NCBI GenBank assembly: GCA_951406725.2
Contig: OX597839.1
Span: 32,116,001 to 32,180,000 of the forward strand
Direction: 5' to 3'
Length of the DNA stretch: 64,000 nucleotides
Origin: Octopus vulgaris
Lineage: Eukaryota
Shown here in pieces: positions 10,301 to 40,609 of this stretch (the stretch's first letter is position 1; each line of letters begins with the position of its first letter). The position numbers and the translations under genes are program-made. The notes under the pieces were generated by a model. That model was given only the letters and a program-made list of their open reading frames with translations, had not been told where the DNA came from and searched no databases.

Positions 10301-11782
10301 TCAATATGTGTGTGTGTGTATCTGTCAAAGTACATTTTGAAGAATTGAAAAATCCCGTCTATATTTGATTAACTTGTTGGTATCTTTCCAGCCTTATAAT
10401 TTAAGGTCTCGGGAGAATAACTCTTTTAGCGTTTTTAATTTTTTACTTTTTCGTTTTCCGTTTACTGTTTCTTTTAACATTCCGTGTTTTCTATCTGCTT
10501 CCTTCTCAATTTTTCGCGTTTTTTCTCTCATTCAATGTTCAGTTCGTTATGGTATGTGCTTTCCGTCTGATAAATATATTCGAGTTGTTCTCTCCATTTC
10601 TGTGTTTAGCCCCCGTCGAGCAATAAAGAAACTGGTATTTCTCAACATATGAAACTATTAATCTTTATATATAAAAGTGAAGTTGTGTGAGTGTCTGTCT
10701 CCTACGATTTAGATTCCTAACTACTCCCACATTTTGCGGTGCAGTTTAACCAAAACCGGGTATCTTATAGTCGTGATTCATATCGAGCCCTTCTGGGTAT
10801 TAGCGCGCATCTACGATGAGTCTACGATTTTTAAAAAGATTTACCATCATTTTTTTCCATTTTAATGCATTTTTTCGCTATTATATAAGGGAAGTAACTC
10901 TCTAAAAATGTCTACGATGAGTCAACGATTTAAAAAAAAATTTACCATAATTTTTTGCTATTTTTTGGCTATAACTCTAAAAATGCTTATATAGTTATTT
11001 CCCTTACAAACCCGAGCAACGCCGGGCGATACTGCTAGTAGCACATAAAATCATGTATTGTGTCTATTAAATGATATTTTATACACACACACACGAGGGG
11101 TTTCCTGAAAAGTCCCTGGCTTTGGGTAAAAGATAATACGGGGGCATCAGTTAATTATGATTTTTATTTAATATTTTCCCCTCTCAGATTCACGCACTTA
11201 TTGCAGTGGTCCTTCGGTTTTTCTAAGTCCTGTATAAGAACTCAAAAGATTGAGCTTCCAACCAGGCCTTTTGTGACGCCCTTAAAGCCAGGAACTTTTC
11301 GTCCCCCCCCCCCTCATATATATGTATCATCAGTTGATATCCATGTTCCATGCTGGCATATATATACTCTTTACTCTTTTACTTGTTTCAGTCATTTGAC
11401 TGCGGCCATGTTGGAGCACTGCCTTTAGTCGAGCAAATCGACCCCGGGACTTATTCTTTGTAAGCCCAGTACTTATTCTATCGGGCTCTATTTGCCGAAC
11501 TGCTAAGTGACGGGGACGTAAACATACCAGCATCAGTTGTCAAGCGAAGGTGGGGAGACAAACACAGACACACACACATACATATATATATATATCCGAC
11601 AGGCTTCTTTCAGTTTCCGTCTACCAAATCCACTCACAAGGCATTGGTCGGCCCAGGGCTATAGCAGAAGACACTTGCCCAAGATGCCACGCAGTGGGAC
11701 TGAACCCGGAACCATGTGGTTGTTAAGCAAGCTACTTACCACACAGCCACTCCTGCGCCTATATATATATATATATATATAT

Positions 11783-17800: not shown

Positions 17801-18755
17801 TGAGTGAAGGAGAATATTTTGGCCAGATATGGTGTTATGATTTAAGGGATATTTTGCTGCTATTTCTAGCAATCTAACAGACCACATACATGTTCCTCTG
17901 TTGACTCGAGAGAGACTTTGTCGATTGCTCTGTTGAATGTTTCTCCCGGTCCATCTTTGCAGGTCATTCATTCCGTACTTTGAAGTGAGCAGCATGAACT
18001 TGAGCCAGTCAGTAGAGGCACCACTGACCCTCAATGATACGGTCACATTTGGAGGTAACATCGAAGCACAGAATGGAAATGGTAATGGAAACATGTTGAT
18101 GGTTTGGAAGCGGTTATTATCAGACAAATCATGGGCAGAGGTAGATGCTTGCTGCTTCTTCATATTCTTTTCGTCCTTAACCCCAAAGTGTGTTGTTTGT
18201 GTGTAAATTCTCGACATTCTGTGACCTCCTCATCTGAGGAGGTTCGTCTTTCGCTTTGAAATATTCCACTTTATTTTCTTTGTGTCATGTGTTCTTGATG
18301 TATATAGAAATATATAAAACGTGTATTTATTGGTACTAAAGAAAAGATTTGTGTGTTTCAAAGTCACCAGTCATGTGTGTTTATTTGGGGGGAATGTTTA
18401 TATATATGTACATTCATATATATATATATATGCATATATATATAATACATATATATATAAAACACATATATATATATTTATACATACATATATATATATG
18501 TATACATACATACATATATATATATACATACATATATATATATATATACATATATATGTATATATACATACATATATATATATACATATATATACATACA
18601 TACATACATATATATATACATACACATACATATGTATACATATATATATATATTCACATATATGTATGCATATATATATATGTGTGTGTATACATATACA
18701 TACATATGAATGCATATATCTGTGTGTATGTATGCATATATATATGTACATATAT

Positions 18756-18795
<40 letters not shown>

Positions 18796-21700
18796 ACATA
18801 CATCATTGTAAGAAATTGTGGTTTATTGCTCCGTTTATTTATTTTTTTCTTTTGTAGTTGTTATTGTATAAATGACATCTGTCTGTGCCATGTAACTTTG
18901 ACATTTTTATGTTCCTAAAGCATAGAAACTGACGGCCAGTCTGTTACAGTTCTGCTTCTTTCTTAAGTGACTCGTTTCTTGAATGACCCAAGGTAAGACA
19001 ATAAAATAACAAAATAAATCAAACTTTGGTATTCTGGCATCTATCAATGCCACCACAGCTCTTAATCAGCTATGCTTTGTTTTCACTTGTTTCTTTCTTC
19101 CTTCGTATGCTAATGTGGTGTTTCTGTGGAGGTGCAATGGCCCAGTGGTTAGGGCAGCGGACTCGCGGTCATAGGATCGCGGTTTTGATTCCCAGACCGG
19201 GCGTTGTGAGTGTTTATTGAGCGAAAACACCTAAAAGCTCCACTAGGCTCCGGCAGGGGATGGTGGTGATCCCTGCTGTACTCTTTCACCGTGGAAGCAC
19301 AATGGCCCAGTGGTTAGGGCAGCGGACTCGCGGTCATAGGATCACGGTTTCGATTCCCAGACCGGGCGTTGTGAGTGTTTATTGAGCGAAAGCACCTAAA
19401 AAAGATCCACGAGGCTCCGACAGGGGATAGTGGCGATCCCTGCTGTACTCTTTCACCACAACTTTCTCTCACTCTTACTTCCTGTTTCTGTTGTACCCGT
19501 ATTTCAAAGGGCTGGCCTTGTCACTCTCTGTGTCACGCTGAATATCCCCGAGAACTACGTTAAGGGTACACGTGTCTGTGGAGTGCTCAGCCACTTACAT
19601 GTTAATTTCACGAGCAGGCTTCCATCCAATGTGATATTTGAAATGCTTAGACGAGGGTTCACTTTAGTGAAGGCTGCTAAGGTGTATTCTGCAAATATTT
19701 TCTCAAAGTATTTTTACGAAACTTAATGATTTTTGTGGACGATTGAGCACTTGCCTTTCAGATTTGTTTAATTTTTTTGCTTACACAAATATTTCCAGTG
19801 ATGGAAATGATGGAACACATGGGGATATATTTTCATATGCAAGATATTAAAAGAAAAACTAAGCTAAACTGGCCTTCTGTTGATTATGATGACATGAGGT
19901 CATTGCCAGTGCCACCGGACTGGCTCCTGTATAGGTGGCACGTAAAAAAACACCATTTGAGCGTGGCTGTTGCCAGTACTGCCTGACTGGCCCTCGTGCT
20001 GGTGGCACATTAAAGCACCCACTACACTCTCGGAGTGGTTGGCATTAGGAAGGGCATCCAGCTGTAGAAACTCTGCCAGATCAGATTGGAGCCTGGTGCA
20101 GCCATGCTAGCAGGGAGAGCAGACGTTAAACGATGATGATGATGAGGAGCTTCCTGTTGATCCAATCAATGGAACAGCCTGCTCGTGAAATTAACATGTC
20201 AAGTGGCTGAGTACTCCACAGACATGTGTACTCTTAACTCTTTTGTTGCCATATTTCTGTTGAGATGCTGTGTTTCTTTCAATTAATTCTAAATATAAGA
20301 AAGAATTTATTAAAATAACTTTGTTATCATTAAGCTGGTGTTAGGAACATAAATTGTGTCTAAGGTTTGGTGGAAGATTTTAATCCAGAACTTTTGCAAA
20401 CAAGACATTTTTACTACAGAGCCAGGGGCGGTTTCAGCTGAGTTGGTATCAAAAGGGTTAATGTAGTTCTCGGGGAGATTCGGTGTGGCACAGAATGTGA
20501 CATGGTTGGCCCTTTAAAATACAGATGCAACTCATTTTTACTCTGTCTACCTTGCATGCATGGGTAGGACAGGTTACAGGAGTCAATCAGGTAGAAGACT
20601 ACCTTTCTGTTTTGGCAGGGTTTTTACACACCTGCACAGATCACTGTTGCACCGTGGTTAATGAATGCCTCTCATCATGACATAAAATGTCTCAGGTAAC
20701 GAGCATGCAGGCCATCAACAATGGTTGGCGATAAGCTAGGAGTATCAGTAGGAGAGCATCAGTTGCTCTCTTGGCTCCAACTAATTCACTTTTAGCGGAA
20801 TAACACAGTTTTATCCAACATTTATCAAATATCATTTTGATCATCATCGTCATTGAATGTCCACTGTCCCTACTGGCATGAGTTGGGTTGTGTGACCAGA
20901 GGTGGCAAGCTGGGGAGCTGCACCAGACTCCAGTCTGATTTGTCCTGGTCTCTGGATGCCTTTCCTAACATGCCAACCACTTTACACAGTGTGCTGGATG
21001 TTTTTATGTGGCACCACGCAGGCACTGCCATGAGTGCTTTACACACCCAAAGGGATTGGGTCTTAACACCTCTGCTGCAGAGTACAGCTCTTCTATAATG
21101 TTATCTTGCATTAAGTGGCATTTTCCAAATATTTTAACTTCCTTGTTTCATATTTTATTGTCATACCTGTATTTTTTGTGTGAAGCTGTTCTCACTCGAC
21201 CGTAAACACGAGCATGTTTGGGTGAGGGATTTTGCCTTGTTCCTTCGTATTAAAGATTACATGTATTTGATTTCATTGGTGTGTATTCTCATCATTCTTT
21301 ATAATTAAATAATAAGGAATTTTATTAAAAAAAAAAATCATTGAAGTATAAGCAGTTTATTGCTCATAAACTTTGACAACAGACTCTTATGTGGATCCTC
21401 AGCAGAAGGGTCCTGGCTGCTGAGAATAAATACCAAATCTACTAGTGTCGCAAAGCAGGAGCATATCAAGAGGAAAATGAGGGGTGAGGCAGTCTCCCTT
21501 GGGCACAGAATTTCTTCTGGCCTCACCTGCCTGTTAATTAAGGTGGAAGGGGGTACTAAAGGTACCTTTGCCCCAGAGTACTGAGATCCTTTGTATAGAA
21601 GATTATTACTTGAACCACTTCACAAACCTTGAATTCATTTTTTTTTTTCTCTAATTTCTGTTTAATAAAATTACGTTAAATTTTAATTTCAGTTTCTACT

Positions 21701-24700
21701 TTTGTTAAAGCAAAGTCTGAGAAAGAATCAGTGTATAAAAACTATTTTGCTTCTTAGGAAAATCTTAAATTACTTGAATTTAGTTGATAGGATGAGTTTA
21801 TCTGAAGTATTGAAGAAGTTTGTCCAATCGAGTGAGAAAGGGTAACCACATTGTTTTCATGTTCATGAATGTCTGAACAAAGGATAAAACCTTTTTTTTT
21901 TCACACAGGCCCATAACTTTCAGTCAATAGAATGGAAGAAGGGAGATGACATAATGTTGTTCAGCCCTGTCTTTCATCCTTTACTTGGTTCCCTCAGATT
22001 GCCATCATGCTGGAGCACTGCTTTGAAGAATTGTTTAGTTAAATGAATCAAGCCCTGCACTTTTTCTTTTTTAAGCCTGGAACTTATGCTTTCAGCTCCT
22101 TTTTTTTTGTTTTTTTTTCTCCAAACCATTAAACAGGGACATAAACACCCCTATATTGGTTGCCAAGCGATGGTAGGGGACAAACACACCACCACACTTT
22201 CGCATACACACACATTTATATACAAAAGGCTTCTCTTAGTTTCCGTCTACCAAATCCACTCACAAAGCTGTAGTCAACCCTTGCCTAGAGTAGAAGACAC
22301 TCACCAAGTGTTCCTCACAGTGGAAATGAACCTGGAACACTGTAGTTCGGAAACAAGCTTCTTACAACACAGCTACGCCTACACCTATGGTCAGCCTTCA
22401 GCCAGCAGGCTATGGTCAAGGGGTTCCAATTATGCCATTTTCAGGGAACTAAGACTACCTTATCTAATGTAGTCCTAGGATTTCCTGAAAAGACTTGCTG
22501 TTTAGTTTGAAGCAGATTTGGCCACCATTTCTTGAAGATCAACCAGTCTGAAAGGGTCATTTTAGATATTGGTTATGAAATTGCCATGAATAGGAATTGG
22601 AGCTTGAAAATGGACTCAACAAACCAGACCAGCCTCATCTACATTTCGTTTCTTTCAATATTAGTCAACACACCACACACTCACACCATTCACTGCAAGT
22701 CAGCAATTGGGGCTTCTGTGCTGCTGCTTGACCTGTGAGAAATAGCAGCCACATTTCTTAAAATCACACTCTACGATCTTAAAAAAGGGGGAGGGACACA
22801 TTAGATAATAGCCCCAAATACTCCTAAAAAAATTAAGATGAGATAGGCTTGGCTGGACCTCCTTCGATCATGTGCTCAGTCAAGGCCGACATAGAACTCT
22901 CCATCTAGTCTCTATGTTCCTACAGAATCGGCAAACAACTTTTTTTTATCATTATTATTATTATTACTTTGCTTCTTGTAACAAGAATTTAGCACAGACA
23001 AATCCAAAGACCAAGTCATCAGCAAAATATTGGTTCTAATAATAATAATATTTTCTGCTTTAGCACAATCCCTGAAATTTTGAGGGAGGGTTCCAGTTGA
23101 TTGCATCAACTTCAAGATTCAACTGGTGTTTATTTCATTGACCCTGGGAAGATAAAAGTCAAAGTCTTAGTGATATTTGAACCCAGAACAGAAAAACGGG
23201 CAAAACGCTGCTTAAGCATTTTGTCTGGTATCCTAATGGTTCTGCTCAAATCATAATGGTTTTAAATTTTAGCACAAGGCCAGCAGTATCATAGGCCCCA
23301 ATGCTTAACGCAGCGGTTTTCAACCAGGGTTCCGCAAGAAGTTACAAAACTGCTAAAATCGACAGTAATTTTTAATTCTCCTGTGCAGATATGTGTGCAT
23401 AAGACAATTAAATTATTGCACAGGGGTTCCTCGAGCCAGTGAAATGTTTTCTTGGGGTTCCGCTCCAGCAAAAAGGTTGAAAAGCACTGGCTTAACGAGT
23501 ACTTATTTTATCGATCCTGAAAAGACAAAAGGCAAAATCGAACTTCGGTAGAATTTCAGCTCATATGAAGCCGGAAGAAATGCCGCTAAGCATTTCGTCC
23601 GGCGAGCTAATGATGATGATGATGATGATGTTGATGATACTTTGCATTGCTCCTTGGAGACACATTTGTGGCGAGCTATAGATGCCGGGATCGATTATCG
23701 ATTCCTGCTGGTTTTGAAGTGAAAACGTTGAGAAACGAAAATTTACATTTACTAAAATATAAAATATATATCTCATCCGGTGCCCGACCCTTTCTGGTCC
23801 TCTAAATAAAAAAAAGGACAGTCGTGACTTTTCACTGACCCCGTAATATAAATGGAAAGAAACACTTCTGAACACAAGGCAGTCGCTTGATTGCTAGAAA
23901 TAACTGCCCTGCCTTCTTGAAATCATATCGTTTTCAAACAACGACTGAAGTGTCATCACTTATCAAACAAGCCATAACTAATCCATAACACCACCATTAC
24001 TACTACTACTACTACTACTACCACTACCACTACTACTGCTTTTCTCCTCTTTCTCTCCCTCTTTATTATTGTCTGAATGTTAAGGACTCTCTACGTAGTC
24101 GCTCGATTGCTGGAAATAGCAGCCAAAAATGTTCTTCAAGCCGTTTCCCACTGTTTTCTGAGACGGAGACGGTGGATGATAGGATCTCGGAGTGCACTGT
24201 GACTGGGGAAACTGTTAAAAAAAAAAATAATAAAAAATTACGTAGTGGTCATGGCTGGAAGAATGCCTTTGATTACATTTCGTCTGCTCGATCGGACCGA
24301 GTCTTCAAACAACACAACACAACACCACAGCCATCTCGTTATCGAGTCAGACATAACTAATCCATAACCACCACCACCGCCTCCGTCGCCACCGTCCCCA
24401 CCACCACCACCACCACTGCTACTACTGCTGCCACTCCTACTCCCACTCATTCTCTACCTCTTCCTCCTGCCCCCTCTATTATTATTATTGTCTCTATTGC
24501 TAAGATGGCTGACTATCGTGTAACGTGGGATAAAAAGAAAGAAAACCAACTCATCGACTATTTCGAAGGTGCGTACATCGTTTGTTATTCAAATCGTTAT
24601 CGCATTCCTCTTTCTTGCTTCGATGTTTTTCGTTTTGTTGTTCTCACATTTTTACTTTTTTTTCAATTCCCATCCCCCCCCCTCCTCCTTCGTTCTTTCC

Positions 24701-25687
24701 TTTTGCTTTTAACTTTCCATTCGGAAAACTATATCTTTCCTAACCTTTCCTCTCTCTACAACATATATTTCAGACTACCCAGTCTGCTATTTATTTACCT
24801 TTACCTGTGTTTTCATATTCATCTATTTCACCTCACCTATCTAAACCCAGATCGTGTATCTTAATCCCGATTCGAACCCCGATCTCCCTCTCCGTGTCTG
24901 TCCGTTTGCTACTATTTATTATATATATATATGTATATACATGTTTTCTTTCTCTCTCTCCCTGTCTGTCTTCCCCTCTTGGCAGCTCGTCCCTGTCTTT
25001 GGGATTTATCTATTTTACCTCACCTATCTAAACCGATCGTGTATGTCTTAATCCCGATTCGAACCCCGATCTCCCTCCCCGTGTCTGTCTGTCTGCTACT
25101 ATTTATTAAATATATATATATATGTATATACATGTTTTCTTTCTCTCTCTCCCTGTCTGTCTTCCCCTCTTGGCAGCTCATCCCTGTCTTTGGGATCATA
25201 GTCATGCCGATTATTTCCGCAGAGGTGTCAGGGATGGACTCATGAAGGAACTGAGCAACAAACTGGGCTGTGATCGATCCGGGCGTCCTTATACAGGTAA
25301 AGTCTGCTCTCTCTCATTATTTCTATGTAACAAGTCTTCCCAAACCGCTCATTTATTTACCTGTGTCGGTGTGCGAACGAGTCGTTAACAACTTCCCTGT
25401 TGCTAATCGAAGTCGACTCAGCGATTGCACTTTCGATTTCCGGTTGAACCATTTCGTTTCGCTTCAGCTGGTCTTTCGGCAAAGGTTTTTTTTTTCCTGT
25501 TGTTGTCGGATGTCGTTGGCCACAAATGAGTTTTTGCTCGGTTGACAATGTCCTTGGCTAATTTACTGCATCAACACAATTTTCCAGGATGTTCCGGCAA
25601 CCCATTAAACGTTAGCCAATGTGCGTGCGTGTTTGTACACGACCTAGCTTTTCGATTTGCTAAAGTTAGCAACCAAATCCCCTTCAA

Positions 25688-25737
<50 letters not shown>

Positions 25738-27063
25738 TGTATACCATCTTAAAATAAAAGGACACATTAGTTAGTGTAGTCCTAAATTCTCTCGGAAAAA
25801 ATTAGATGGTCACGGTTGGGATGTCTCTAATAACAGGTCTGCATATTCAGAGGTGACCTGTGTCTGGGAAGTACAGACGCACACACATCGACAATGCACC
25901 TTTGTTAATATAAATACGTCCAGGTTAGAAAGGATTGTGTTAACCGGTGACAGAGGTTAATGTCATGATATGCAATTAGGGAAAATATATTTATCGATAC
26001 ATTTTTGAACAGACTAACAAAATTATAAAAAATACCGTCAGTGTCACGTAAAAACAACACAAATCTTATGAAAAAAAATACGAGTGAGTACTCGTAGAAA
26101 ATCCGTGGGTGATATTGCCTTCTGGTTAATTACTTGTAGTTGCAGGAATTAATTGAACAAAATAGACGGCTATAACTAAATATAATTTATACGTGGACAG
26201 TGAAACGTCTGCACACTTCTATTCAATATTCTGTTAAACCAGTGATTCCCAACCAATTTTTACCTATGGGCCCTTTTGGTTGTTGTTTTACTTGAATGGA
26301 CCCTCAAACATTTGATGTTTACAAAAAAATCCGGTTGTATTTTTATGGTTAAATATCATTAGGAATTGAATTTTAAAAAATAGTTAAAACATTTTGTGTA
26401 TAGGCGCAGGAGTGGCTGTGTGGTAAGTAGCTTGCTTACCAACCACATGGTTCCGGGCTCAGTCCCACTGCGTGGCGTCTTGGGCAAATGTCTTCTGCTA
26501 TAGCCCCGGGCCGACCAATGCCCTGTGAGTGGATTTGGTAGACGGAAACTGGAAGAAGCCTGTCGTATATATGTATATATATGTTTGTGTGTTTGTGTGT
26601 CTGTGTTTGTCCCCCTAGCATTGCTTGACAACCGATGCTGGTGTGTTTATGTCCCCGTCACTTAGCGGTTTGGCAAAAGAGACCGATAGAATAAGTACTG
26701 GGCTTACAAAAGAATAAGTCCCGGGGTCGAGTTGCTCGACTAAAGGCAGTGCTCCAGCATGGCCGCAGTCAAATGACTGAAACAAGTAAAAGAGTATAGT
26801 AAAAGCATAAACCAGTTTACTGTACTTTATAAACTGGTTTATACTTTTAGTATAATCTTATATGGACCCTGGTTAAGAACCGCTGGGCTAAACAAGTGCC
26901 TTGTTAATGTTTCCAGGAAATACAGGGGTAGTGAAATCTTCATAACTTGCAGTGTTTCTCATAAGAAATGAGTTGAGCTGACAAATTGCTGTTTTTAATA
27001 AAATTAAGGTAATTTTCAACTTGTCCAACACCATCATGAACAAAGAAAAATTTTAGGGATGCA

Positions 27064-27095
<32 letters not shown>

Positions 27096-30000
27096 TTAGC
27101 GTCCGCTTTCCATGCTAGCATGGGTTGGACGGTTCAACTGGGGTCTGTGAAGCCGGAAGGCTGCATCAGGCCCAGTCTGATCTGGCAATGTTTCTACGGC
27201 TGGATGCCCTTCCTAACGCCAACCACTCCGTGAGTGTAGTGGGTGCTTTTTACGTGCCACCCGCACAGGTGCCAGGCGGAGCTGGCAAACGGCCATGAAC
27301 AGATGGTGCTTTTACGTGCCACCGGCACGGGGGCCAGGCGAGGCTGTTAATAATAATGGAGGGAGAGTGAAAACATTGTCAGTTATATTGTCAAGTAGTT
27401 CTGTCGTTTTGCATTTTATAAATCAGCAGCTCAACCAACTAAAATAACTTCGGTCAGTACTTGGACAAAATTCAGACATAACAAAAGTACTCTTTCAGTA
27501 GGGACAGACGAATGGGACACCACTGCTATTTACATTGGTAGATTGGAATGAAGTTGAAGAAGTGAGGCTTGTGATATAACCCTTTCTATTATAGGCACAA
27601 GGCCTGAAATTTGGGCGGGAGGGGACCAGTCGATTAGATCGATCCCAGTGCACAGCTGGTACTTAATTTATTGACTCCGAAAGGATGAAAGGCAAAGTCA
27701 ACTTTGGTGGAATTTGAACTCTGAACGTAAAGACAGACGAAATACCACAAAGCATTTCGCCCAGCGTGCTAACGTTTCTGCCAGATCACTGCTTTCAGGC
27801 TTCTGATATAATAACATGTTGTGTGTTGGTCCTCCCTCCCTGTCACTACCACCACTGCACTCATATAAGATGAAGGAGGGCTTGATTCAACGTGTTGGAC
27901 ATCAATATTGTCAGCAAGGTTTAAAAGGTGTAACAGGCTGAAACAAACCCCATAAATGAGTCGAGTTACCATTGTTTACCTCGCTGCTTCTGGATAATGT
28001 CCTTTAAGGGTCAAAGATCTTTTGCTTGTTTCAGTCATTAGACCGTGGCCCTGCTGGGGTACTCTCTTGAAAGGTTTGGTCAAACAAATTGACCCCGGTT
28101 CTTAAGTTAATTACTTATTCTATCAGGCTTTTTTGCCAAACTGTTATGGAGGCCTAAGCAAATCAACACTATTTATCAAGTAATGGGGTGACAAACTCAA
28201 CACATACTCAAAGATACATGCATACATATATATTACTCATACACATACAACAGGCTTCACACAGTTTCCATCTACTGAATCACTCACAAGGCATTGATCA
28301 GTCAGCCTTATGAAAGAAAACCCTTGCCCAAGGTACCCTGCTGTGGGGCTGAACTCAAAAGCCTTGTGTTAAAGTGAGCTTTGCTGACCTTCACTTGCTG
28401 TTGACAAACCAAAGCAGGAATTGTTGTTGTCAAGAAATTCTTTTGTAAATGAAAATTTGAGTTTCTTGGACAGTCATTGTTGTCTAGGAACTTATTCTGT
28501 GTCTTCTGGCCTGATTCTGACATCAACATCTTGTCCATCTGAAGAATATGTTGAAAATTCCTTGCCTTGACTCCTTCAAAATCATATTCCAGCTCCATAT
28601 CATTAAGAGGGGTTTTTTTTTCCCCGAAACCATTGGCTAGAAAGCACTGGCACAAAGTCACCCCCTCCCAACTGAGGGGCTTTTGTCTTGCAAATTACTT
28701 GGTGATCCCATCAGTGATGGTGCCACTCTGTAAAGTGGTTGGCATTAAGAAGGGCATCCCACGGCAATGGAGCCTGGTGTGGCTCAGCCTTGCTGGCTCC
28801 TGTCAAACTGTTCAGCTCATGCCAGCATGGAAACTGGATGTTAAATGACGATGATGGCTAGAGTGGTAGTCTACTCTGGCCTTTCAAAGTCCATCCATGT
28901 AGTGACCTCCCCATCACCACCACTTTTTAACATTCATAGTTCTCTGTCGAATTGTAATATTTATTCACATTGTTTTTAATAAATCATGCATTATCTTATA
29001 AATTCAAGATTTTGATGATTTTATTTTTAGAATGGCATTGTAGCGTTGGTGTGAGATGCCAGATCTAGCCATTTTGAACATAAAACAATGTAAAATATTT
29101 GGGTCAGATATGGCCAGTTTAAATGCAAAAGGGTTAAGTGCTGCACATCATGTATTTGTACAGCAGCACTAACGTTGACACAAGTATTCCTTAATTTACG
29201 TCCAGGTGTCAAGACAAAAACACCCATGTAAATGCATGTGTATATGATAGACCCCTTTTTCAGTTTCCCTCTACCAAATTCATTCACAAGGCTCTGGTCA
29301 GCCAATGGCTACAGTAGAAAACACTCAACAAAGGTACTGTGCAGTGGAACTGAACCCGTGACCAAGTGATTGCGAAACAAACTTCTTGACCCCACAACCA
29401 TGCCTGTCTATGTTGAAAATAATAATAATGATAATAATAACATAAAAAGGCACATAAAAAGCACCATCCGAACGTGGCCGATGCCAGCGCTGCCTCGACT
29501 GGCTCCAGTGCCGGTGGCACATAAAAAGCACCATCCGAACGTGGCCGTTGCCAGCGCCGCCTTGGCTGGCTCCCGTGCCAGTGGCACATTAAAAGCTCCA
29601 ACTGATCGTGGCCGATGCCGGACCCCCCCCCCCCCCCGGCACCTGTGCAGGTGACACATAAAAAGCATCCAGCCGTAGAAACACTGCCAGATCAGACTGG
29701 AGCCTGGTGTGGTCCCTGGCTTCCCAGACCCCGGTCGAACCGTCCAACCCGTGCTAGCGCGGAAAACGGACGTTAAACGATGATGATGAATAATCTTAAT
29801 ACTAATGGTTTCAATTTTTGGTACAAGGTCAGCAATTTCAGTGTTCAGTACTTAATTCATCAACTCCGAAAGGATAAGTCAACCCCAGTGGCCTTTGAAC
29901 TCATTTGGAAGAGATGCCACTTAGCATTTTTCCCAGTATGGTAATGATTCTGCTAGCTCAGTCTTGATGATAATTATGAAATAATTACTAATGTTTTAAA

Positions 30001-33000
30001 CATTATAAGCACCAAGCTGTTGTCGATAAGAGCAGCAGGCGTAATACTGTATTTTTTAATATATATTTTGTTTTTAGAAAGACACATCAAGATGAGGTGG
30101 AAAAACATACGTACCACTTACGCCCGGGAGTGTCGGAAATCAGAAAGTCGTGCTGAAGATGGTAGTGACTATGTATCAAAATGGGCTTTCATTGATCGTT
30201 TGGGTTTTATCAAAGACTTCATTAAGTCACGTGCTCCTTACAACTGTTCCAATAACTTCAGGCTGTCTACTCTTACTGCTGTGTCTTCAGACCAAACAGA
30301 TGTTTACCAGGTAAGTGAAGAATTCACTGGAATAATTTACTTTGGGATCAGCTAACTACGTCCCTTTTTTTTGAATTTCAAATATAGGGGAAAGATTCGG
30401 GTGCAGGTGTGGCTGTGTGACAAGAAGTTTGCTTCCTAACCACATGGTTCTGGGTTCAGTCACACTGCGTGGTACCTTGAGCAAGTGTCTTGTACTATAG
30501 CCTCAGGGCAACCAAAGCCTTGCGAGTTGATTTGGTAGACAGAAACTGAAAGAAGCCTGTCGTATATCTGTGTTTGTCCCCTTAACTTAGTGGTTCACCA
30601 AAAGAGACGGATAGAACAAGTACTAGGCTTAAAAGAAATGAGAGTACTGGTATTGATTCAGTCGACTAAAAGCTCCAGCATGGCCACAGTCTAATGACCA
30701 AAACAAGTAAATGATAAAAGTGAATTACAGCTCAATGAGTTAAGTCGAACAGGGTATTCGACCTCTAGCTAAAGAACTAATGGGGTATGATGTTGTGTCA
30801 ATTATTCTGCATCCTGTCCTTGGTCAAGACATTCGACTTGAGAATGGCTACTTCTGTTTAACTGTAAATAAGCTCCCTGGAGTTCACTGACGTAACTAAG
30901 ATGAATTTGGTTTCTCCTTATATGTTTATATATATATATGTGGAGGCGCAATGGCCCAGTGGTTAGGGCAGCGGACTTGTGGCCGTAGGATCGCGGTTTC
31001 GATTCCCAGACCGGGTGTTGTGTGTGTTTATTGAGCGAAAACACCTAAAAGCTCCACAAGGCTCCGGCAGGGGGGGGCACCCCTGCTGTACTCTTTCACC
31101 ACTCTTTCTTCTGTTGGCCTGCTCGCTTAGCCAGCGGGGTGGCGTCATTCGAAGGCTAAAACAATGCGAACGCATTGTGACCAGCAATGTGTAACTACAT
31201 CTGATGGACTAGTTGGTCACGTGATATATATATATATTATTTTTTTTTAACTGGGACAGAAAGATCAAAATAATAAATACAAAAAAAAAGGAAAAGTAAG
31301 AAATAATATTTTCCACTTAGACTTTTGAATTAACTAAACTATAGTGACAAGTGACCAAGACCCTTGGCAATATACCATGCATGTGTAGACTGGTCAAGCC
31401 AAGTGAGATCATAGTCATGGCTGATGCCGGTGTTTTGTAACTGGCCCCTGTGCCAGTGGCACGTAAAATGCACCAGTCCGATCGTGGCCGTTGCCAGCCT
31501 CACCTGGCACCTGTGCCAGTGTCACGTAAAAAGCACCCACTATGCTCTGGGAGTGGTTGGTGTTGGGAAGGGCATCCAGCTGTAGAAACCTTGCCAAATC
31601 AAATTGAAACCTGTTGCAGCTTCTTAGGCCCTAACTTAGATTTGCTACCTGGAGCTAGTTTTCATGTGCAAAAGGTTATGAACTTCAATTTAGTGTTATT
31701 TTAACAAAATGTTTGTATAGGCGCAGGAGTGGCTGTGTGGTAAGTAGCATGCTTACCAACCACATGGTTCCGGGTTCGGTCCCGCTGCGTGGCACCTTGG
31801 GCAAGTGTCTTCTACTATAGCCCCGGGTCGACCAAAGCCTTGTGAGTGGATTTGGTAGATGGAAACTGAAAGAAGCCCGTCGTATATATGTATATATATA
31901 TATGTTTGTGTGTCTGTGTTTGTCCCCCTAGCATTGCTTGACAACTGATGCTGGTGTGTTTATGTCCCTGTCACTTAGCGGTTCAGCAAAAGAGACCGAT
32001 AGAATAAGTACTGGGCTTACAAAAAAGAATAAGTCCCGGGGTCGAGTTGCTTGACTAAAGGTGGTGCTCCAGCATGGCCGCAGTCAAATGACTGAAACAA
32101 GTAAAAGAGTATATATTGGCTTCCTGATCTTTGACTGATATAAAATATTTTCTCAGACTCTTTCAGATGATGACATCGAAGAAGAGGACGACGACGATTT
32201 GGTTGTCTGTTTAACGGAACCATTTAAAGATGACAACACGACTCAGAAATCAAATCACCAGGACATGTGGGACTCGGATGATAAGAAAAGCATCTGGATA
32301 TCAGAAGGGGTGAGCTTGGCGAACAATGCGAGTGATTTGAAAAATATAGACGGGAGCAAAAACAATTTAACTGAGTCCTGGATTGTTCAGGAAAGGGTCA
32401 GTCCCCATCGAGACTGGCGGGTTGAAGAAAGAAATAGTGGGAGTCCTTCAGAAATGTGGAGAAAAGGCAATCGAGAAAGTCATCCGTCAGATGTCGCCAC
32501 AGACAACCTTCATAATAACAACTGTACTGATTCCTCTGGTGACATTCAAGTTGGAAATATCACTTACATGCACAACATTAAAAATCCTCAGTCAGAAAAA
32601 AATAGTCATGGAATTGAAGACTACCAGCAGACGGATACCGTTTCTCTTGCAGAAACATTGTCTTTGAACAATAAAGTGTCTTGGAGTAAAGACAAGGAAA
32701 GTGAACTTATTGCATTTTTTGAAGGTATGTTTTTTTTGTTTTTTTTTTGTCTTTCATTTTTCATACTTGGTTTTACATCTGTTTTTTCAATGGTAGCATG
32801 AGTTAGATGAGTGTATTACCTAAGTATTATTTTACAGGCCCGCATGGGCATTAAATGATGGTACCCTTCTTGTCATTAACCCTTAGCTGTTTTTCAAGTA
32901 AGGGATCTGTTATTCTACACATGTTGAAAGGAGCAAATACCGGTGGAGACTTTGTTGACAGAAGAAATGACAACATCCCTTCTTTGTAGCTCAGAGATTT

Positions 33001-36000
33001 TCAAAAAAGCACAAACACATGCGAGTAAGTGTGTGACTGGCTTCTTCAACCAAATCCACTCCCAAGGGCTTTGGTTGTCCTGGGGCCACAGTAGAAGACA
33101 CATGCCCAAGGTGCTGCACAATAGGACTGAACTTAAAACCATGTGCTTGGGAAGTGAACTTCTTCACCAGACAACCATCATTCATTTCCCGTCAGTCACA
33201 TCTTTACATAATTTTATTTTCACAAGGTGACAGAGTATTAGAGAGGGATGGTTGAACCAAATATTTTATAAGAGGGTTTAGTGTGTAAGACAGGGAGCAT
33301 GGCAGGAGTAGACTAGAGACTCCCTTTGTTTTGTGTTGACCCAAGAACATAGTATTGATAAGAAACCTCAATAATGGTGAAATATTGATATCTACCATTC
33401 TCGGTAATTCCGAGGCAAGTTGTCTCACCTGGTCTCTGACATTCAGATAGTCTTTAACACTTGGAATCATTTGGGGAGCTTTTTCCCAGATGCTGTCTCA
33501 CACCAATTTTGGCATCTAAACAAAACATATACACTGTGTGTGCAACCAATAATATTTACCTTACTAGGGCTCTTTTACTCTTTTACTTGTTTCAGTCATT
33601 TGACTGCGGCCATGCTGGAGCACCGCCTTCAGTCGAGCAAATCGATCCCAGGACTTTTTCTTTGTAAGCCCAGTACTTATTCTATCGGTCTCTTTTGCCG
33701 AACCGCTAAGTGACGGAGACGCAAACACACCAGCATCGGTTGTCAAGCAATGCTAGGGGGACAAACACAGACATACAAACACACATACATATATATACAA
33801 CAGGCTTCTTTCAGTTTCCGTCTACCAAATCCACTCACAAGGCACTGGTCGGCCCAGGGCTATAGCAGAAGACACTTGCCCAAGATGCCACGCAGTGGGA
33901 CTGAACCCGGAACCATGTGGTTGGTTAGCAAGCTACTTACCACACAGCCATTCCTGTGCCTAATTGTAATTCATAATTTAATGTGTGTGTGTGTGTGTGT
34001 GTTCCCTTGCTTTGACATCACATAATAGTTGTAAGGAAATGTCTCCATCATGTAATGCAGTGTCCTTCATTTTGCAATTTCCCATGGAAAACATGTCTGA
34101 TCATGGAGAAATATTACTTTACTTGGTTAGCAACAGGAAGGGCGTCAGACAATAGAAAACTTCACCTACAAATGCCATCAACCATGGAAGAGTGGACTTT
34201 AAAACAACGATGATGATGTCTCAGGTTTTACCTTTAATATATCATTCAAAATACACCTGGTCCCTTCTCCATGTTATTCTGCTGACTCTGCTTCAGGGAG
34301 AGCATTGTGTCCCCTGTCTATTTTAGTCTTTTAATTCACTTTTTGTCTTAAAGCTTCATATTAAAGAAAGTTTTCTCGGTTTTTACAGTTGGGTATCTTA
34401 ACTACTTCATCATTGTCTCTTATTTTCTTTTTTTTTTTTGCTGCTTTCTCAGGTCACCGGTTCCTATGGGACCATTCTCATCCGGATTATTTCAACCGAG
34501 ATCTACGAGACTGTATGATACGAGAGTTAAGTTCTAAATTGGGTCATGATCGAAACGGACAACCTTACACAGGTATTTAGTGTTTTAAATGTCATACTAC
34601 AAGACGTAGCCCCATATTTGTCTAGAAATGGATTGAGCACTACCCTGATCATTCACATTTCTTCCCCCCCCCCCCATAATCACACTCTTTCCTCCTTCAT
34701 GCTCTCTCCTTCTGTCCCCTTCTCAGCCGGATTCTTCTGCAGTTGCCCTCTCTCCTAGGCATTCTATTGATTCTGTTGCCTTGAACAAACAGAGACAATG
34801 GTTAGCAGTGAGGACCCCTTTTTGTCTTGTAGGCTGTAAGGCAGTTGGCAAATGAGCATCGACCCCCATAGGGTTGAAAGGACCTTTTTGGTTCTGTTGT
34901 TTTAAAACCTTATCAACTTCTCCATTGCTGGTGCCAAGAGAAAATGTACTTAGAGCATTATGTAAAGAATTGGTTTGTGTTTGGAAAGGCATTCAGCTGT
35001 AGGGACCATGTCAAAATAAAATGTAAGATGAGAGGGAGTCTTCCAACCATAAAAACCCATTAGAATCTGGATCAAACTGAGTCTGGATGTTGCACCATGA
35101 CAACACACCTGCTCACACGTATCACACCTTGTCCTTGGTTCTTTTGGTAAAGCACAAGACCACACACTAAGTCAGTCCTCCCGACTCCCATCCAGCCCTC
35201 TGGATTTCAGCCCTGCAAATACTTTTTTTTTATCAAAGTTGAAACCTACCCTTGCAATGGAAACTATGCAGTAACTTGAAAATGCATTTTAAGATGCTTT
35301 CTAAAAGTTATAAAAAATAATGGGAAAAGAATGTCAAGATGTTGAGAGTGGTGTCTTAACAGTGGAGGCAAGTATTTCCAAGGAGATGTCTACGACTAAC
35401 TCTTTAGTATTTAAACCAAGCATTTCTGACCAAAATATTCTACTTGTTTTATATTCCAACTGACAGATCCTGCCCCTCACACCTACCCGACACTATCATT
35501 CTTGAAATAAACAGTCACATCAAAATCTCAGAGCTACAGCAGGATTAATTGAAAACAATGGGAATAAATAAGGATTACATTTGATGAATAACATGAATGG
35601 TAAAGGGTCAAAGTGTTGTGTGAGGGGAACAATAGCTTTTTGATGATGAGTCCCTTTTTAGACTTACCTCCTGCGTGTCGTAATATTATCATCATCATTT
35701 AACATCGGTTTTCCATGCTGGTATGGATTGGATGGTTTGACAGGAGCTGGCAAACCAGAAAGCTGCACCGGGCCCCAATTGCCTGTTTTGACACAGTTTC
35801 AATGACTGGATGTCCTTATTAACACCAACAATTTTTACAGTCTGCTGGGTGCCTTTTACGTGCCACCAGTACAGGTGCTTTTTACATGGTACTAGCACAG
35901 GTGCCTTTTACGTGCCACCAGCACAGGTGCCTTTCGTATGACACCAGCACAGGTGCCTTTTATGTGTCACCAGCACAGGTGCCTTTTACGTGCCACCAGC

Positions 36001-39000
36001 ACAGGTGCCTTTTACGTGCCACCAGCACAGGTGCCTTTTACGTGCCACCAGCTTGGGTATCTTTTACGTGCCACCAGCTTGGGTGCCTTTTATGTGCCAC
36101 CAGCACAGGTGCCTTTTACGTGTCACCAGCACAGGTGCCTTTTACGTGCCACCAGCACAGGTGCCTTTTACGTGCCACCAGCACAGGTGCCTTTAGTATG
36201 ACACCAGCACAGGTGCCTTTTACGTGCCACCAGCACAGGTGCCTTTTACGTGCCACCAGCTTGGGTGCCTTTTATGTGCCACCAGCACAGGTGCCTTTCA
36301 TATGACACCAGCTTAGGTGCCTTTTATGTGCCACCAGCACAGGTGCCTTTTACGTGCCACCAGCACAGGTGCCTTTTACGTGCCACCAGCACAGGTGCCT
36401 TTTACGTGCCACCAGCACAGGTGCCTTTTACGTGCCACCAGCACAGGTGCCTTTTACGTGCCACCAGCACAGGTGCCTTTTACGTGCCACCAGCACAGGT
36501 GCCTTTCGTATGACACCAGCACAGGTGCCTTTTACGTGCCACCAGCACAGGTGCCTTTTACGTGCCACCAGCACAGGTGCCTTTTACGTGCCACCAGCTT
36601 GGGTGCCTTTTATGTGCCACCAGCACAGGTGCCTTTCATATGACACCAGCTTAGGTGCCTTTTATGTGCCACCAGCACAGGTGCCTTTTACGTGCCACCA
36701 GCACAGGTGCCTTTTACGTGCCACCAGCACAGGTGCCTTTTACGTGCCACCAGCACAGGTGCCTTTCGTATGACACCAGCACAGGTGCCTTTTACGTGCC
36801 ACCAGCACAGGTGCCTTTTACGTGCCACCAGCTTGGGTGCCTTTTATGTGCCACCAGCACAGGTGCCTTTCATATGACACCAGCTTAGGTGCCTTTTATG
36901 TGCCACCAGCACAGGTGCCTTTTACGTGCCACCAGCACAGGTGCCTTTCATATGACACCAGCACAGGTGCCTTTTATGTGTCACTAGCACAGGTGCTTTT
37001 TGTTTTTGTATGTGTGTTGCATACGTTATATGTATATTTGCATTACTTGTGCACGTGAGTTATGTGTGTCCTTTGTGTATTTTCATGGCAGATGGTTTCA
37101 TACGGCAAAGATGGAAGAACCTACGGACCACTTTTGCTCGAGAGTTGAAGAAGATTGAACACCACAGCAAACACAACCAGGAAACTCCTTACATTTCGCG
37201 GTGGGCACATACGGAACGACTGTCTTTCCTGAAAGATTGTTTAAAAGCACGGGGTCATTTAAAAGTAGTTTCTCGTCTACAGAATAACATAGATGTGTGT
37301 CCTGTGAGTTGGATAATGTTTCTGTTCGGTTTTTAACTCTTACTGCATCATCATCATCATCATCATCACCTTTAGCCTCACTTCAGTTTTTGTATACTCT
37401 TTTACTTGTTTCAGTCATTTGACTGCGGCCATGCTGGAGCATCACCTTTAGTCGAGCAACTCGACCCCGGGAATTATTCTTTGTAAGCCCAGTACTTATT
37501 CTATCGGTCTCTTTTGCCGAACCGCTAAGTGACGGGGACATAAACACACCAGCATTGGTTGTCAAGCAATGCTAGGGGGACAAACACAGACACACAAACA
37601 CATGCGCACATATATGTATATACATATATACGACGGGCTTCTTTCAGTTTCCGTCTACCAAATCCACTCACAAGGCTTTGGTCGGCCTGAGGCTATAGTA
37701 GAAGACACTTGCCCAAGGTGCCACGCAGTGGGACTGAACCCAGAACCATGCGGTTGGTAAGCAAGCTACTTACCACACAGCCACTCCTGCGCCTGCAGGA
37801 GTATGCTGTCAAGTGTCAAAAAAGTTGGCTCATTTTACATTTAATCTTTCTTGGTGGTTATCTTCATCATCGTCATCATCATCATCTGTCTATTTCATTG
37901 CTTGCTTGTGTTGTTGAAGGATGATGTCTTGCCACCTGTTTCCATCACTTGTTGTCTCCTTTGTGAGATTCAGCTCCCTGAAATCGATTCTTAATTCTTT
38001 ATTACCCACAAGGGGCTAAACATAGAGGGGACAAACAAGGACAGACAAAGGGATTAAGTTGATTACATCAACCCCAGTGCGTAATTGGTACTTCTGCCAG
38101 CGGCGAGCTGGCAGAAGCGTCAGCACACCGGGCGAAATGCTTTGCGGTATTTCGTCTGCCGTTACATTGTGAGTTCAAATTCCGCCGAGGTCGACTTTGC
38201 CTTTCATCCTTTCGGGGTTGATAAATCAAGCACCAGTTACGCACTGGGGTCGATGTAATCAACTTAATACCTATGTCTGTCCTTGTTTGTCCCCTCTATG
38301 TTTAGCCCCTTGTGGGTAAAAAAGAAATAGGTACTTAATTTATCGACCCCGAAAGGATGAAAGGCAAAGTCAACCTCAGCGGAATTTGAACTCAGAACGT
38401 AACAGCAGACGAAATACTGCTAAGCACTTCGCCCGGCATGCTTACCGTTTCTGCCAGCTCATCGCCTTCCCTGAAATCGATTCTGTGGGCTCCTTCCACT
38501 TGCTGAAATATTTAAGAGTGGTGAAAATAGCTTGTGTAGTTAAGGAGTTAGATGAGGTCCTTTATAGTGCCTCGTCTTGACCTGTTTTAAAAGCTACCAA
38601 ATTTTAGCTGCTCAAAATGGTGAGAAACATTCCAGTGTTGGGTCCTGTGATTAAAGGCATTTAAGTATAATTCTTTGTTTTGTTTTTTCTTTCTCTCTAT
38701 TTAGAAGTCCCTGGGACTGCATTATTAAGTGTGACTTCAAGCCAGTAGGACACCAGCTTCCCGAACTGTGTGTCACTGTCACCAAATTGACTTTGGTCTG
38801 ACTGGTTCCATGTCACATATTTTATTTGTGATAAAATTTGGGTCATGAAAAAAAATTTTTTATTTGAAAACAAGAGTGGAAAGTTTGGAAGTTGTGTGGA
38901 AGAGTGTGATTTGAAGGAGATTTAACTGCTATTTCTAACAGGTTGAACATCTTTACGTGAATACTTTGTTTTAAAGGCATGAGTGTTACACAATTTCATT

Positions 39001-39967
39001 TTTCCTTCACATTTATATTTTGCTTTTCTTTTTTTTGTACCTTAAGAAATTAATATCTCTGAATCTTTTTTTTTTTATTTTCCTTTTTCCGTATTTATTT
39101 CCAGACTTATTCCTTATCTGATGATTCCGATGTCGGCAACGACTCCATAGCTTGGCCGTCGGAACAGTTTGTCGAAGATGAATCGCCTAATTTTGAACAA
39201 CTCTCAAGAACAAAGCGGCTGGACACCAACCTAGTGATAAACTCCCTCGATTTATTGTCAGACAACAACAACATCGGGGGTGGAGGAGGAGGTGGTGGTG
39301 GTGGCAACGGCGGCGGCGGTGGTGGTGGTGGTGGTGGTGGTGGCGGCAGTGGAGGTAACATTAGTATCAATGGCACTGTACAGAATTTCTCGGCATCAAC
39401 GACGCTAAAGCGATGTCGGTCGGATGATATGGACTTGAAAGACGACTTCCTCAAGGAAGCCTGGAGGATTTTCAACCTGAAAGAACGCCATGACCCCGAG
39501 GACTTGTTCGGTATGCATGTAGCAGGGACATTACGGCGAATGCAACCACTGCAGAGAGAGAAAGCCAAACTAGACATTCAGGGCATTTTGTTACAACACT
39601 GCTTCTCAAAAGCTGATCAATAAATTCCACATATATTTCAATATAAGTGCACTGCCTTAATCAATATTGATGTTTGCTGGTTGAATGTTCATGGGATCTT
39701 TTCTCTTTTTGCATCTATATATTGTTTTGTTTGTTTTTCCCAAAATGTTTTTTGTTTTTTTTTATTATAGGTCTGCTAAATCATCACTGACCAGGATCTA
39801 GACAGCACATGGAAATACATGGTGGACCATTCCATTTCAGAGTTTAGGGTCCAGAACTGAAACACAACATTGGAACCAATGATTCAGTCATCCATACTGG
39901 ACTTAACTCTCAACATCTTCTACAACACCACATTTATCAACCAGTCCCCTGTGTGTGTGTGTGTATG

Positions 39968-40003
<36 letters not shown>

Positions 40004-40548
40004 TGTTAGATAATTAAGTGGCTTGTGGGTTGGCAGTTTAATGCAAGGCATTTATCAAAGTTTCTTTAAAATAATTGCTAATTTTGATAAGAGTATTCCC
40101 TGAAACTCTTTACCTTTAAGTCACTTTTGTAATTTTTCTGATATATATATATATATATATATACCATCCAAACGTGGCTGATGCCAGCGCCGCCTTGACT
40201 GACTTCCATGCTGGTGGCATCTAAAAAGTACCAATCGATCATGGCCATTGCCAGCCATTTCTGGCCCTTGTGCCAGTGGCACGTAAAAAATACCCACTAC
40301 ACTCATGAAGTGGTTGGCGTTAGGAAGGGCATCCATAAAGTCTCTTACAGCTGATTCTAGAATATCTGTGCATATGGTGCATGGGTCATTGAGTAAAGAT
40401 TTCCATTAAAAAAAACCCCCAACTGTTCCATCTTCAGAGAGGAAGAATTAAGGAATATCCTAGCAGTTTCCTGTTTAATTGTCAAAGAGAGAAAGTGCAC
40501 TTAGCACCCGTTCTTATTGCCTTATGGTATTATACAGTTTTTGTCAGT

Positions 40549-40609
<61 letters not shown>

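What the first reader, a model, noticed from the sequence alone, without database searches (positions are those of the whole stretch)
24505..39623. Complete double-MADF + BESS gene nested on the same strand inside a DNAJC11 intron
Seen: seven GT-AG exons join into an uninterrupted 611-aa ORF, entirely within the 23.9-kb DNAJC11 intron 18141-42068, by far the largest DNAJC11 intron here. Established: MADF-BESS proteins (Adf-1, Dip3 type) are best known from insects, MADF/Myb-like domains are related to the PIF/Harbinger accessory protein, and nested genes are more often antisense to the host. Inference: host pre-mRNA must skip seven good exons and the nested gene's 3' end, so the two genes compete for splicing and polyadenylation. 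This could couple a mitochondrial MIB/MICOS-associated co-chaperone to a nuclear regulator.
Basis: partly seen in the sequence, partly recalled or inferred. Interest (0 to 1): 0.75.

Follow-up and report, generated by a model that had tools for sequence, protein, structure and literature searches.

The report
Seven-exon gene inside octopus DNAJC11 intron
A real, spliced, seven-exon octopus gene for a likely DNA-binding regulator lies inside an intron of the mitochondrial chaperone gene DNAJC11 and reads in the same direction, likely from its own promoter; this is an uncommon but known kind of gene nesting, and nothing found here links the two genes' functions.

Summary
Seven GT-AG exons (24505-39623) give 611 aa inside DNAJC11 intron 6 (23,928 nt), on the same strand; DNAJC11 is intact (17 exons, 562 aa). 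Spliced contigs join exons 1-5; joins 5-6-7 rest on contig lengths and RefSeq proteins. RefSeq already lists it as a separate uncharacterised gene in two Octopus species. Both MADF domains pass Pfam; the BESS motif is divergent, below Pfam's cut-off but supported by homologues and a predicted fold. The gene is single-copy and conserved (62% identical distant orthologue), and its two MADF repeats arose by an old internal duplication. It likely has its own promoter: a unique CpG-rich 5' region, and one contig runs unspliced through the AG before the ATG. One public O. vulgaris model fuses it in frame with DNAJC11; no contig showed such a join, so that model is probably an annotation artefact. 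Same-strand nesting with six introns is in the rare tail (fly: most same-strand nested genes have one exon). Interference between the genes is plausible but untested, and mitochondrial-nuclear coupling has no support. No earlier scan note covers this locus. Verdict: real, uncommon, known kind.

The parts
17963..18140 (+). DNAJC11 exon 6 (host; donor GAG|GTAGAT, phase 0)
18141..42068 (+). DNAJC11 intron 6, 23,928 nt, which holds the nested gene
   Evidence: largest of 16 introns
23660..25690 (+). Single-copy, CpG-undepleted region around nested exon 1: likely promoter, 5' leader and first intron (start site not located)
   Evidence: CpG o/e 0.98, against 0.96 at DNAJC11 exon 1 and 0.41-0.48 in the gene bodies; only microsatellite-sized matches elsewhere in the genome
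24488..24504 (+). Transcribed 5' leader directly before the ATG; it ends in an AG that a public fused gene model uses as an acceptor
   Evidence: contig of run X13 covers 24488-24566 with 0 differences; fused model P0011
24505..24568 (+). Nested gene exon 1 (ATG; start of MADF1)
24817..25158 (+). 187-nt tandem duplication in intron 1 that leaves a decoy copy of the exon-2 acceptor at 24986
   Evidence: 3 of 3 exon 1-2 joins seen use 25177
25177..25296 (+). Exon 2, 120 nt, phase 1-1 (MADF1 middle)
   Evidence: PF10545 27.4 bits; spliced contigs
30078..30310 (+). Exon 3 (MADF1 recognition helix and end)
   Evidence: PF10545 31.1 bits
32157..32724 (+). Exon 4 (predicted disordered linker; start of MADF2)
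34453..34572 (+). Exon 5, 120 nt, phase 1-1 (MADF2 middle; counterpart of exon 2)
   Evidence: PF10545 27.4 bits
37092..37303 (+). Exon 6 (MADF2 recognition helix and end)
   Evidence: PF10545 36.9 bits; RefSeq proteins; contig lengths
39105..39623 (+). Exon 7: linker, length-variable poly-Gly tract (39279-39343), BESS-like helices, stop
39619..39624 (+). AATAAA overlapping the stop codon; candidate poly(A) signal, untested
   Evidence: sequence; no other AATAAA before DNAJC11 exon 7, only ATTAAA at 40405, 41890, 42039
42069..42136 (+). DNAJC11 exon 7 (host acceptor)

Best explanation
This is a spliced, single-copy gene for a tandem-MADF protein with a BESS-like tail, a likely DNA-binding transcriptional regulator, nested on the same strand in DNAJC11 intron 6 and likely transcribed from its own promoter. 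Shown: the exon structure, the splicing of exons 1-5, two MADF domains, conservation, and an intact host gene. Inferred for the protein: each MADF binds DNA through a three-helix trihelix-type fold, and the C-terminal helices dimerise or recruit partners as BESS does in Adf-1 and Dip3. Inferred for the locus: polymerases from the nested promoter make the 611-aa mRNA and end near the stop, while polymerases from the DNAJC11 promoter 29 kb upstream read through and splice 18140>42069. Host RNA mis-spliced to nested exons 2, 3, 5 or 6 meets a stop within 6-23 codons and would be removed by nonsense-mediated decay. Some mutual transcriptional interference is likely as a side effect, not a shown function. 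Inferred origin: an intron-bearing single-MADF-BESS gene of ultimately PIF/Harbinger ancestry came into the intron as DNA, not as a retrocopy. It duplicated its MADF module internally before Octopus split from the lineage of the 62%-identical orthologue.
For: ORF and junctions. Separate RefSeq genes in O. sinensis and O. bimaculoides with the same start Met. Spliced contigs: exons 2-5 in 4 of 4 runs, exons 1-2 in 3 of 4. Contig lengths past exon 5 fit exon 6 plus exon 7 as far as 39257-39308 in 5 of 5 runs, which is past the fused model's exit at 39233. X13 reads 17 genomic bases through the AG before the ATG, and none of 4 runs has a loose end there. The distant orthologue P0164 has a short non-DNAJC11 leader before the same Met. 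The 5' region is unique and CpG-undepleted like the host promoter; octopus methylation lies on gene bodies and often spares promoters (PMC9476566, passages). Canonical DNAJC11 with exon 6 joined to exon 7 is on record in O. sinensis, O. bimaculoides, Argonauta and unnamed assemblies. Identity to P0164 is 82% in MADF1, 76% in MADF2 and 95% in the BESS core (36 of 38), against 47% and 29% in the linkers. Both repeats carry a 120-nt phase-1 exon at the same place and group by repeat position in two trees. Three single-MADF paralogues on C25 share the second intron position and phase. Single copy. AlphaFold gives two confident MADF domains and C-terminal helices 560-573 and 577-599.
Against: The transcription start was not located: contigs stop at microsatellites in the leader, and only 1 of 5 runs crosses the AG|ATG boundary. 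In X6 the contig begins exactly at the exon-2 acceptor with no cover on exon 1, which would also fit a second upstream partner. The runs are contigs that drop rare forms and are only guessed to be RNA, although the spliced joins show RNA. A public O. vulgaris model (CAI9741449.1, P0011) fuses the genes in frame, and no canonical O. vulgaris DNAJC11 accession was listed with P0005. The AG before the ATG is a possible acceptor: 4.9 bits on a small 22-site matrix, with about 7% of 1,289 intron AGs scoring higher. CpG richness is not specific to promoters; a young repeat at 8.5-11 kb is richer. BESS is below Pfam's cut-off. Some MADF domains do not bind DNA (CP60; PMC10573801, passages). Nesting in other species is only indirectly supported (same contig, consecutive accessions).
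Confidence: 0.82

Rival explanations
1. Compound locus: DNAJC11 exon 6 is spliced in frame to the AG just before the nested ATG (or to exon 4 or 7), giving a J-domain-MADF-BESS fusion as a regular alternative product; or nested exon 3 or 6 is spliced in frame to DNAJC11 exon 7.
For: All these joins are in frame. A public model uses exon 6>24505 (P0011). X6's contig starts exactly at the exon-2 acceptor. An unchecked scan note (e1-8663591) describes another gene in this genome that swaps transposon-derived DNA-binding ends onto one N-terminus.
Against: X13 reads genomic sequence through that AG, and no run shows DNAJC11 letters at a loose end. Contigs run past the fused model's exit donor CTA|GTGATA, which fits the donor consensus poorly by inspection. 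RefSeq keeps the genes separate in two species. The full fused model would cut the DNAJC11 beta-barrel domain in two. A join to exon 2 would be out of frame.
Confidence: 0.08
2. Independent genes, but the nesting is kept by selection as a regulatory switch: nested transcription terminates or truncates DNAJC11 (as Mcts2 does to H13), tying mitochondrial DNAJC11 dose to this regulator.
For: Mechanism shown at mouse H13/Mcts2 (PMC13309782, abstract and introduction). Six AATAAA lie between host exon 6 and the nested ATG. Selection normally removes intron-bearing same-strand nests (PMC3814207), so long survival invites an explanation.
Against: No expression, 3'-end or perturbation data here. About one AATAAA per kb is ordinary in AT-rich introns. 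Conserved nesting outside Octopus was not shown. Fly nested pairs show no functional or expression coupling on average.
Confidence: 0.15
3. Misassembly placed a separate gene into this intron.
For: The intron is 3.3 times longer than the next largest and is repeat-rich.
Against: In O. sinensis and O. bimaculoides both genes lie on contigs of the same length, and the older O. bimaculoides accessions are consecutive (XP_014784864/5). The window has no N and there is no second copy in the genome.
Confidence: 0.03
4. The ORF is the accessory gene of a recent or active PIF/Harbinger element.
For: PIF elements carry MADF genes (PMC9710019); the genome has 12 DDE_Tnp_4 matches.
Against: Single copy, six introns over 15 kb, domain-restricted conservation, 0 of 12 transposase matches on this contig, and no transposase remnant in the window or 20 kb upstream.
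Confidence: 0.02

Closest known systems
Drosophila MADF-BESS family (Adf-1, Dip3, Stonewall, CP60; PMC10573801, passages read)
   Same: N-terminal MADF, C-terminal two-helix BESS-like motif, disordered linker.
   Different: Two MADF repeats from an internal duplication; BESS below Pfam's cut-off; a mollusc gene, although that paper calls the family insect-specific. Multi-MADF proteins also occur in fish and flies (P0014, P0017, P0022).
Single-MADF proteins with a BESS-like tail of hagfish and lampreys (P0015, P0023, P0024, P0032)
   Same: Sister group of both repeats in two trees (support 96/83 and 92/84); similar C-terminal motif.
   Different: One MADF only, 234-315 aa; genomic context not seen. 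The trees held only 43 and 29 proteins, chosen mostly from the best hits, so the sister relation is a lead.
Same-strand host/nested protein-coding pairs of fly and mammals (PMC3814207, PMC8467205, PMC11694760; passages read)
   Same: A complete gene inside the host's long intron, in the same orientation (29% of fly and 22-26% of mammalian coding pairs).
   Different: Six introns, where 72.5% of fly same-strand nested genes have one exon and the multi-exon ones have a median of one intron; the nested gene here is old and conserved rather than a young duplicate.
Mouse H13/Mcts2 (PMC13309782; abstract and introduction read)
   Same: Nested gene with an intragenic CpG-rich promoter inside a host intron.
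   Different: Mcts2 is an imprinted retrogene with shown interference; here the gene kept an ancestral intron and no interference has been measured.
Domesticated PIF/Harbinger MADF genes (APM, LPM2; PMC9710019, passages read)
   Same: Single-copy, conserved MADF gene without visible transposon context.
   Different: No neighbouring domesticated transposase; direct descent from a particular element was not shown.

Membership tests
MADF-BESS family | MADF domain (PF10545) above cut-off | tested here: met
   132.8 bits, two stretches; four exons pass singly
MADF-BESS family | C-terminal BESS motif (PF02944) | tested here: inconclusive
   11.6-14.0 bits against a cut-off of 21; Atlas first hit is a BESS cluster at 0.89, a lead only; motif shared with 37 non-orthologous MADF proteins among 194 searched, one of which scores 20.6 bits; two confident helices
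MADF-BESS family | BESS-mediated homodimerisation | not tested
   No result; see Tried and rejected
MADF-BESS family | Myb/SANT/trihelix three-helix fold | tested here: inconclusive
   Confident three-helix domains; best PDB rows are Zeste, GT-1 and Sap1 DNA-binding domains, but no Foldseek E<=0.001 and best Z 7.1 (rmsd 4.4, 96 aligned)
MADF-BESS family | Sequence-specific DNA binding and nuclear action | not testable with these tools
   Needs SELEX, ChIP or localisation
Same-strand nested gene | All coding exons within one host intron, same strand | tested here: met
Same-strand nested gene | Host gene intact and spliced across the intron | tested here: met
   562 aa, 0 mismatches to the RefSeq protein; the junction rests on recorded proteins, not on reads laid here
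Same-strand nested gene | Own transcription start, no exon shared with the host | tested here: inconclusive
   Unspliced leader in 1 of 5 runs and no chimeric loose end; promoter-like CpG island; cap site not mapped
PIF/Harbinger transposon (autonomous or recent) | Adjacent DDE_Tnp_4 transposase gene | tested here: not met
   0 of 12 genome matches on this contig; four transposase ORFs find no remnant in the window or 20 kb upstream, apart from one ORF's repeat-like tail
PIF/Harbinger transposon (autonomous or recent) | Multiple copies | tested here: not met
PIF/Harbinger transposon (autonomous or recent) | Terminal inverted repeats and 3-bp target duplication | not tested
   Repeat search covered only 23600-25700 and 8400-11100
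Retrogene | Loss of parental introns | tested here: not met
   Six introns; one position and phase shared with the C25 paralogues

The most novel reading that the evidence does not exclude
The locus is a switchable compound gene. In some tissues DNAJC11 exon 6 splices in frame to the AG just before the nested ATG, joining an Hsp70-recruiting J-domain to a double-MADF-BESS DNA-binding protein and removing mitochondrial DNAJC11 at the same time: a chaperone-transcription-factor fusion built from a transposon-derived gene.
Probability: 0.07. Interest if true: 0.78.

Novelty: new member of a known kind. Interest (0 to 1): 0.36.

Why it matters
Same-strand nested genes with many introns are thought to be purged because they disturb host splicing. 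An old, conserved six-intron example inside a housekeeping gene is a clean test of how a spliceosome passes 15 kb of well-defined exons, and of whether reading-frame mismatch plus NMD hides the errors. It also shows tandem MADF-BESS-type regulators in cephalopods and flags a probably wrong fused DNAJC11 model in public annotation. It does not by itself show new biology; the fusion or switch readings would, and both can be tested with long reads.

Tried and rejected
No run on record as RNA was listed as a holder; 20 of 24 rows held the exon, and the runs laid were marked 'RNA?'. Joint and loose-end tables were swamped by SINE contigs; only the piece table was usable. No cover on the leader upstream of 24488: repeats there were skipped, so it says nothing on the start site. 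The word-index search with P0001 returned only itself (1 of 6,507 candidates), although the HMMER library found 471 relatives. A metagenome scan for the distant orthologue's last exon gave one 24-aa chance-level hit and no locus, so nesting outside Octopus could not be checked; cluster look-ups gave no DNAJC11 piece on the long contigs that hold the orthologue's exons. Foldseek gave no match at E<=0.001. Rfam: 0 matches in the window. The 47 other exon-7 matches in the genome centre on the poly-Gly tract. The CpG peak at 8.5-11 kb was first suspected to be a second promoter; it is a tandem repeat element. My score for the fused model's exit donor was one base off and is not used. Paralogue B was mis-joined and dropped from that tree (29 of 30 proteins kept); its intron position was read. 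Literature: 'MADF'+'octopus' 4 papers, 2 listed; 'DNAJC11'+'nested'+'intron' 4; 'cephalopod'+'nested gene' 4; 'DNAJC11'+'octopus' 0. None of the listings points to this locus. Supplements were not read, and gene tables of cephalopod genome papers could bear on synteny.
Full report
Observation. The seven exons named in 'parts' join over six GT-AG introns into 611 aa with one terminal stop. DNAJC11, rebuilt against the O. sinensis RefSeq protein with 20 kb of upstream DNA added, has 17 exons and 562 aa with 0 mismatches. Its intron 6 (18141-42068, 23,928 nt, phase 0) is the largest of 16 and holds the whole nested ORF on the same strand.

The gene is real and already annotated. A search with exon 4 returned O. 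sinensis LOC115224823. Its cluster of five holds three O. sinensis isoforms that differ only in poly-Gly length, O. bimaculoides LOC106879707, and a 1,044-aa O. vulgaris prediction. Contigs of public runs join exons 2-3-4-5 in 4 of 4 runs and exons 1-2 in 3 of 4. The unaligned remainders of the contigs fit exon 6 plus exon 7 as far as 39257-39308, where the poly-Gly repeat begins, in 5 of 5 runs. The gene is single-copy: exon 3 finds only itself and exon 6, and the tail only itself.

Independent gene or branch of DNAJC11? An AG directly precedes the ATG, host intron 6 is phase 0, and the O. vulgaris model P0011 splices DNAJC11 exon 6 to that ATG and leaves exon 7 at 39233 for DNAJC11 exon 7. 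Four lines speak against that model as the main product. Run X13 reads 17 genomic bases through the AG without a difference, and none of 4 runs has a loose end there. Contigs run on past 39233. RefSeq keeps the genes apart in two species. A distant orthologue has a short leader unrelated to DNAJC11 before the same Met. In addition, the 2 kb around exon 1 is unique and has CpG o/e 0.98, like the host's exon 1 region (0.96) and unlike the gene bodies (0.41-0.48); octopus methylation sits on gene bodies and often spares promoters (PMC9476566, passages). The limits are that only 1 of 5 runs crosses the boundary, the start site is hidden by microsatellites, X6 begins exactly at the exon-2 acceptor, and contigs drop rare forms. 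Canonical exon 6-7 splicing of DNAJC11 rests on recorded proteins from three named species and unnamed assemblies, not on reads laid here.

Protein. Pfam MADF scores 132.8 bits in two stretches. BESS reaches only 11.6-14.0 bits against a cut-off of 21. However, the last 71 aa match 46 of 194 proteins held, 37 of them non-orthologous MADF proteins (E-values for that small set), the Atlas ranks a BESS cluster first at 0.89, a lead only, and AlphaFold gives two confident helices there and two confident MADF domains with disordered linkers. Fold searches put Zeste, GT-1 and Sap1 DNA-binding domains on top without significant scores. Against the distant orthologue P0164 (62% overall, unnamed record), identity is 82% and 76% in the MADFs, 36 of 38 in the BESS core, and 47% and 29% in the linkers. 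DNAJC11 proteins from unnamed records are 84-85% identical, against 93% for Argonauta, so the orthologue is likely from a non-octopod cephalopod; that is an inference, and the two kinds of record were not linked to one organism. DNA binding and dimerisation are inferred from the family (PMC10573801, passages), which also shows that a MADF need not bind DNA.

Origin. The repeats are 54% identical and each is split by phase-1 introns around a 120-nt exon. In trees of 62 domains from 43 proteins and 39 domains from 29 of 30 proteins, repeat 1 of Octopus groups with repeat 1 of the orthologue and repeat 2 with repeat 2, so the duplication is older than that split. The sister group is single-MADF proteins of hagfish and lampreys (96/83; 92/84); the sample was drawn mostly from the best hits, so this is a lead. 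Three single-MADF paralogues clustered on C25 share the second intron position and phase but are not close in the tree. The gene is therefore not a retrocopy. MADF genes are one of the two PIF/Harbinger genes and are often domesticated (PMC9710019, passages; PMC10027918, passages), but no transposase lies near: 0 of 12 genome matches are on this contig, and there is no remnant in 84 kb. Inverted repeats around the gene were not searched.

How the two genes coexist (inferred). Full-length DNAJC11 RNA must pass six nested acceptors that score as well as the host's own on a small matrix. Mis-splicing from exon 6 to nested exon 2, 3, 5 or 6 gives a stop within 6-23 codons, more than 150 nt before the last junction, and would be an NMD target; joins to the AG|ATG, exon 4 or exon 7 stay in frame. 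Exons 2 and 3, the first internal acceptors met, are both out of frame, which could hide errors. An AATAAA overlaps the nested stop codon and no other lies before host exon 7; its use is untested. Interference of a nested promoter with host elongation is shown at mouse H13/Mcts2 (PMC13309782, abstract and introduction) and is plausible here, but nothing measured it.

How unusual. Nested genes are 9.5% of fly genes, and 71% are on the opposite strand; 72.5% of same-strand ones are single-exon and the rest have a median of one intron (PMC3814207, passages). Human and mouse have 76 of 296 and 55 of 248 same-strand coding pairs (PMC8467205, passages); a wider survey of host/nested pairs finds orientations broadly similar (PMC11694760, passages). 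Six introns is thus uncommon but not a new kind. Four paper searches listed nothing on this locus, and the scan's notes hold nothing on it.

Verdict. This is a conserved tandem-MADF, BESS-like gene nested on the same strand in DNAJC11, most likely independent (0.82). A regular J-domain-MADF fusion is not excluded (0.07). Interest 0.36; new member of a known kind.

Noticed in passing
window 8501-11040: Three head-to-tail copies (about 1.08 kb period, the last shorter) of a young CpG-rich element in DNAJC11 intron 3, each ending in a GC hairpin plus CTAG; resembles a non-autonomous Helitron (label recalled, not from a call).
   Followed up: partly
G000:C25:10307261-10346550 (L013-L017): Cluster of three intron-bearing single-MADF genes with BESS-like last exons, one on the minus and two on the plus strand.
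   Followed up: partly
window 39279-39343: GGT microsatellite coding a poly-Gly tract, 10-15 residues longer here than in the O. sinensis isoforms and absent from the distant orthologue; the three RefSeq isoforms differ only here.
   Followed up: partly
P0011 (CAI9741449.1): Public O. vulgaris model fuses DNAJC11 and the MADF gene, and UniRef names it DNAJC11; probably an annotation error.
   Followed up: yes
L025-L027 (G000 C6, C25, C11): Intact-looking HARBI1-like DDE_Tnp_4 ORFs of 305-373 aa; possible domesticated Harbinger transposases and candidate partners of MADF proteins.
   Followed up: no
window 35848-37001: 44 copies of a 26-nt unit directly upstream of nested exon 6.
   Followed up: no
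window 3264-4917: Frameshifted LINE reverse-transcriptase fragment in DNAJC11 intron 2 (RVT_1 106 bits).
   Followed up: partly
window 6565: DNAJC11 exon 3 uses an AAG acceptor, so AAG acceptors like the one before the nested ATG can work in this gene.
   Followed up: no
P0002-P0004: O. bimaculoides DNAJC11 models end in different last exons; these tails were not found at 70% identity after window position 54000.
   Followed up: partly
PMC2151771 (passages): In primates DNAJC11 overlaps a splice variant of THAP3, another gene of a transposon-derived DNA-binding family (family origin per PMC10027918); probably coincidence.
   Followed up: no
L013 (G000:C25:10298814-10303649): Two tandem, near-identical single-frame ORFs of about 610 aa beside the MADF cluster.
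   Followed up: no
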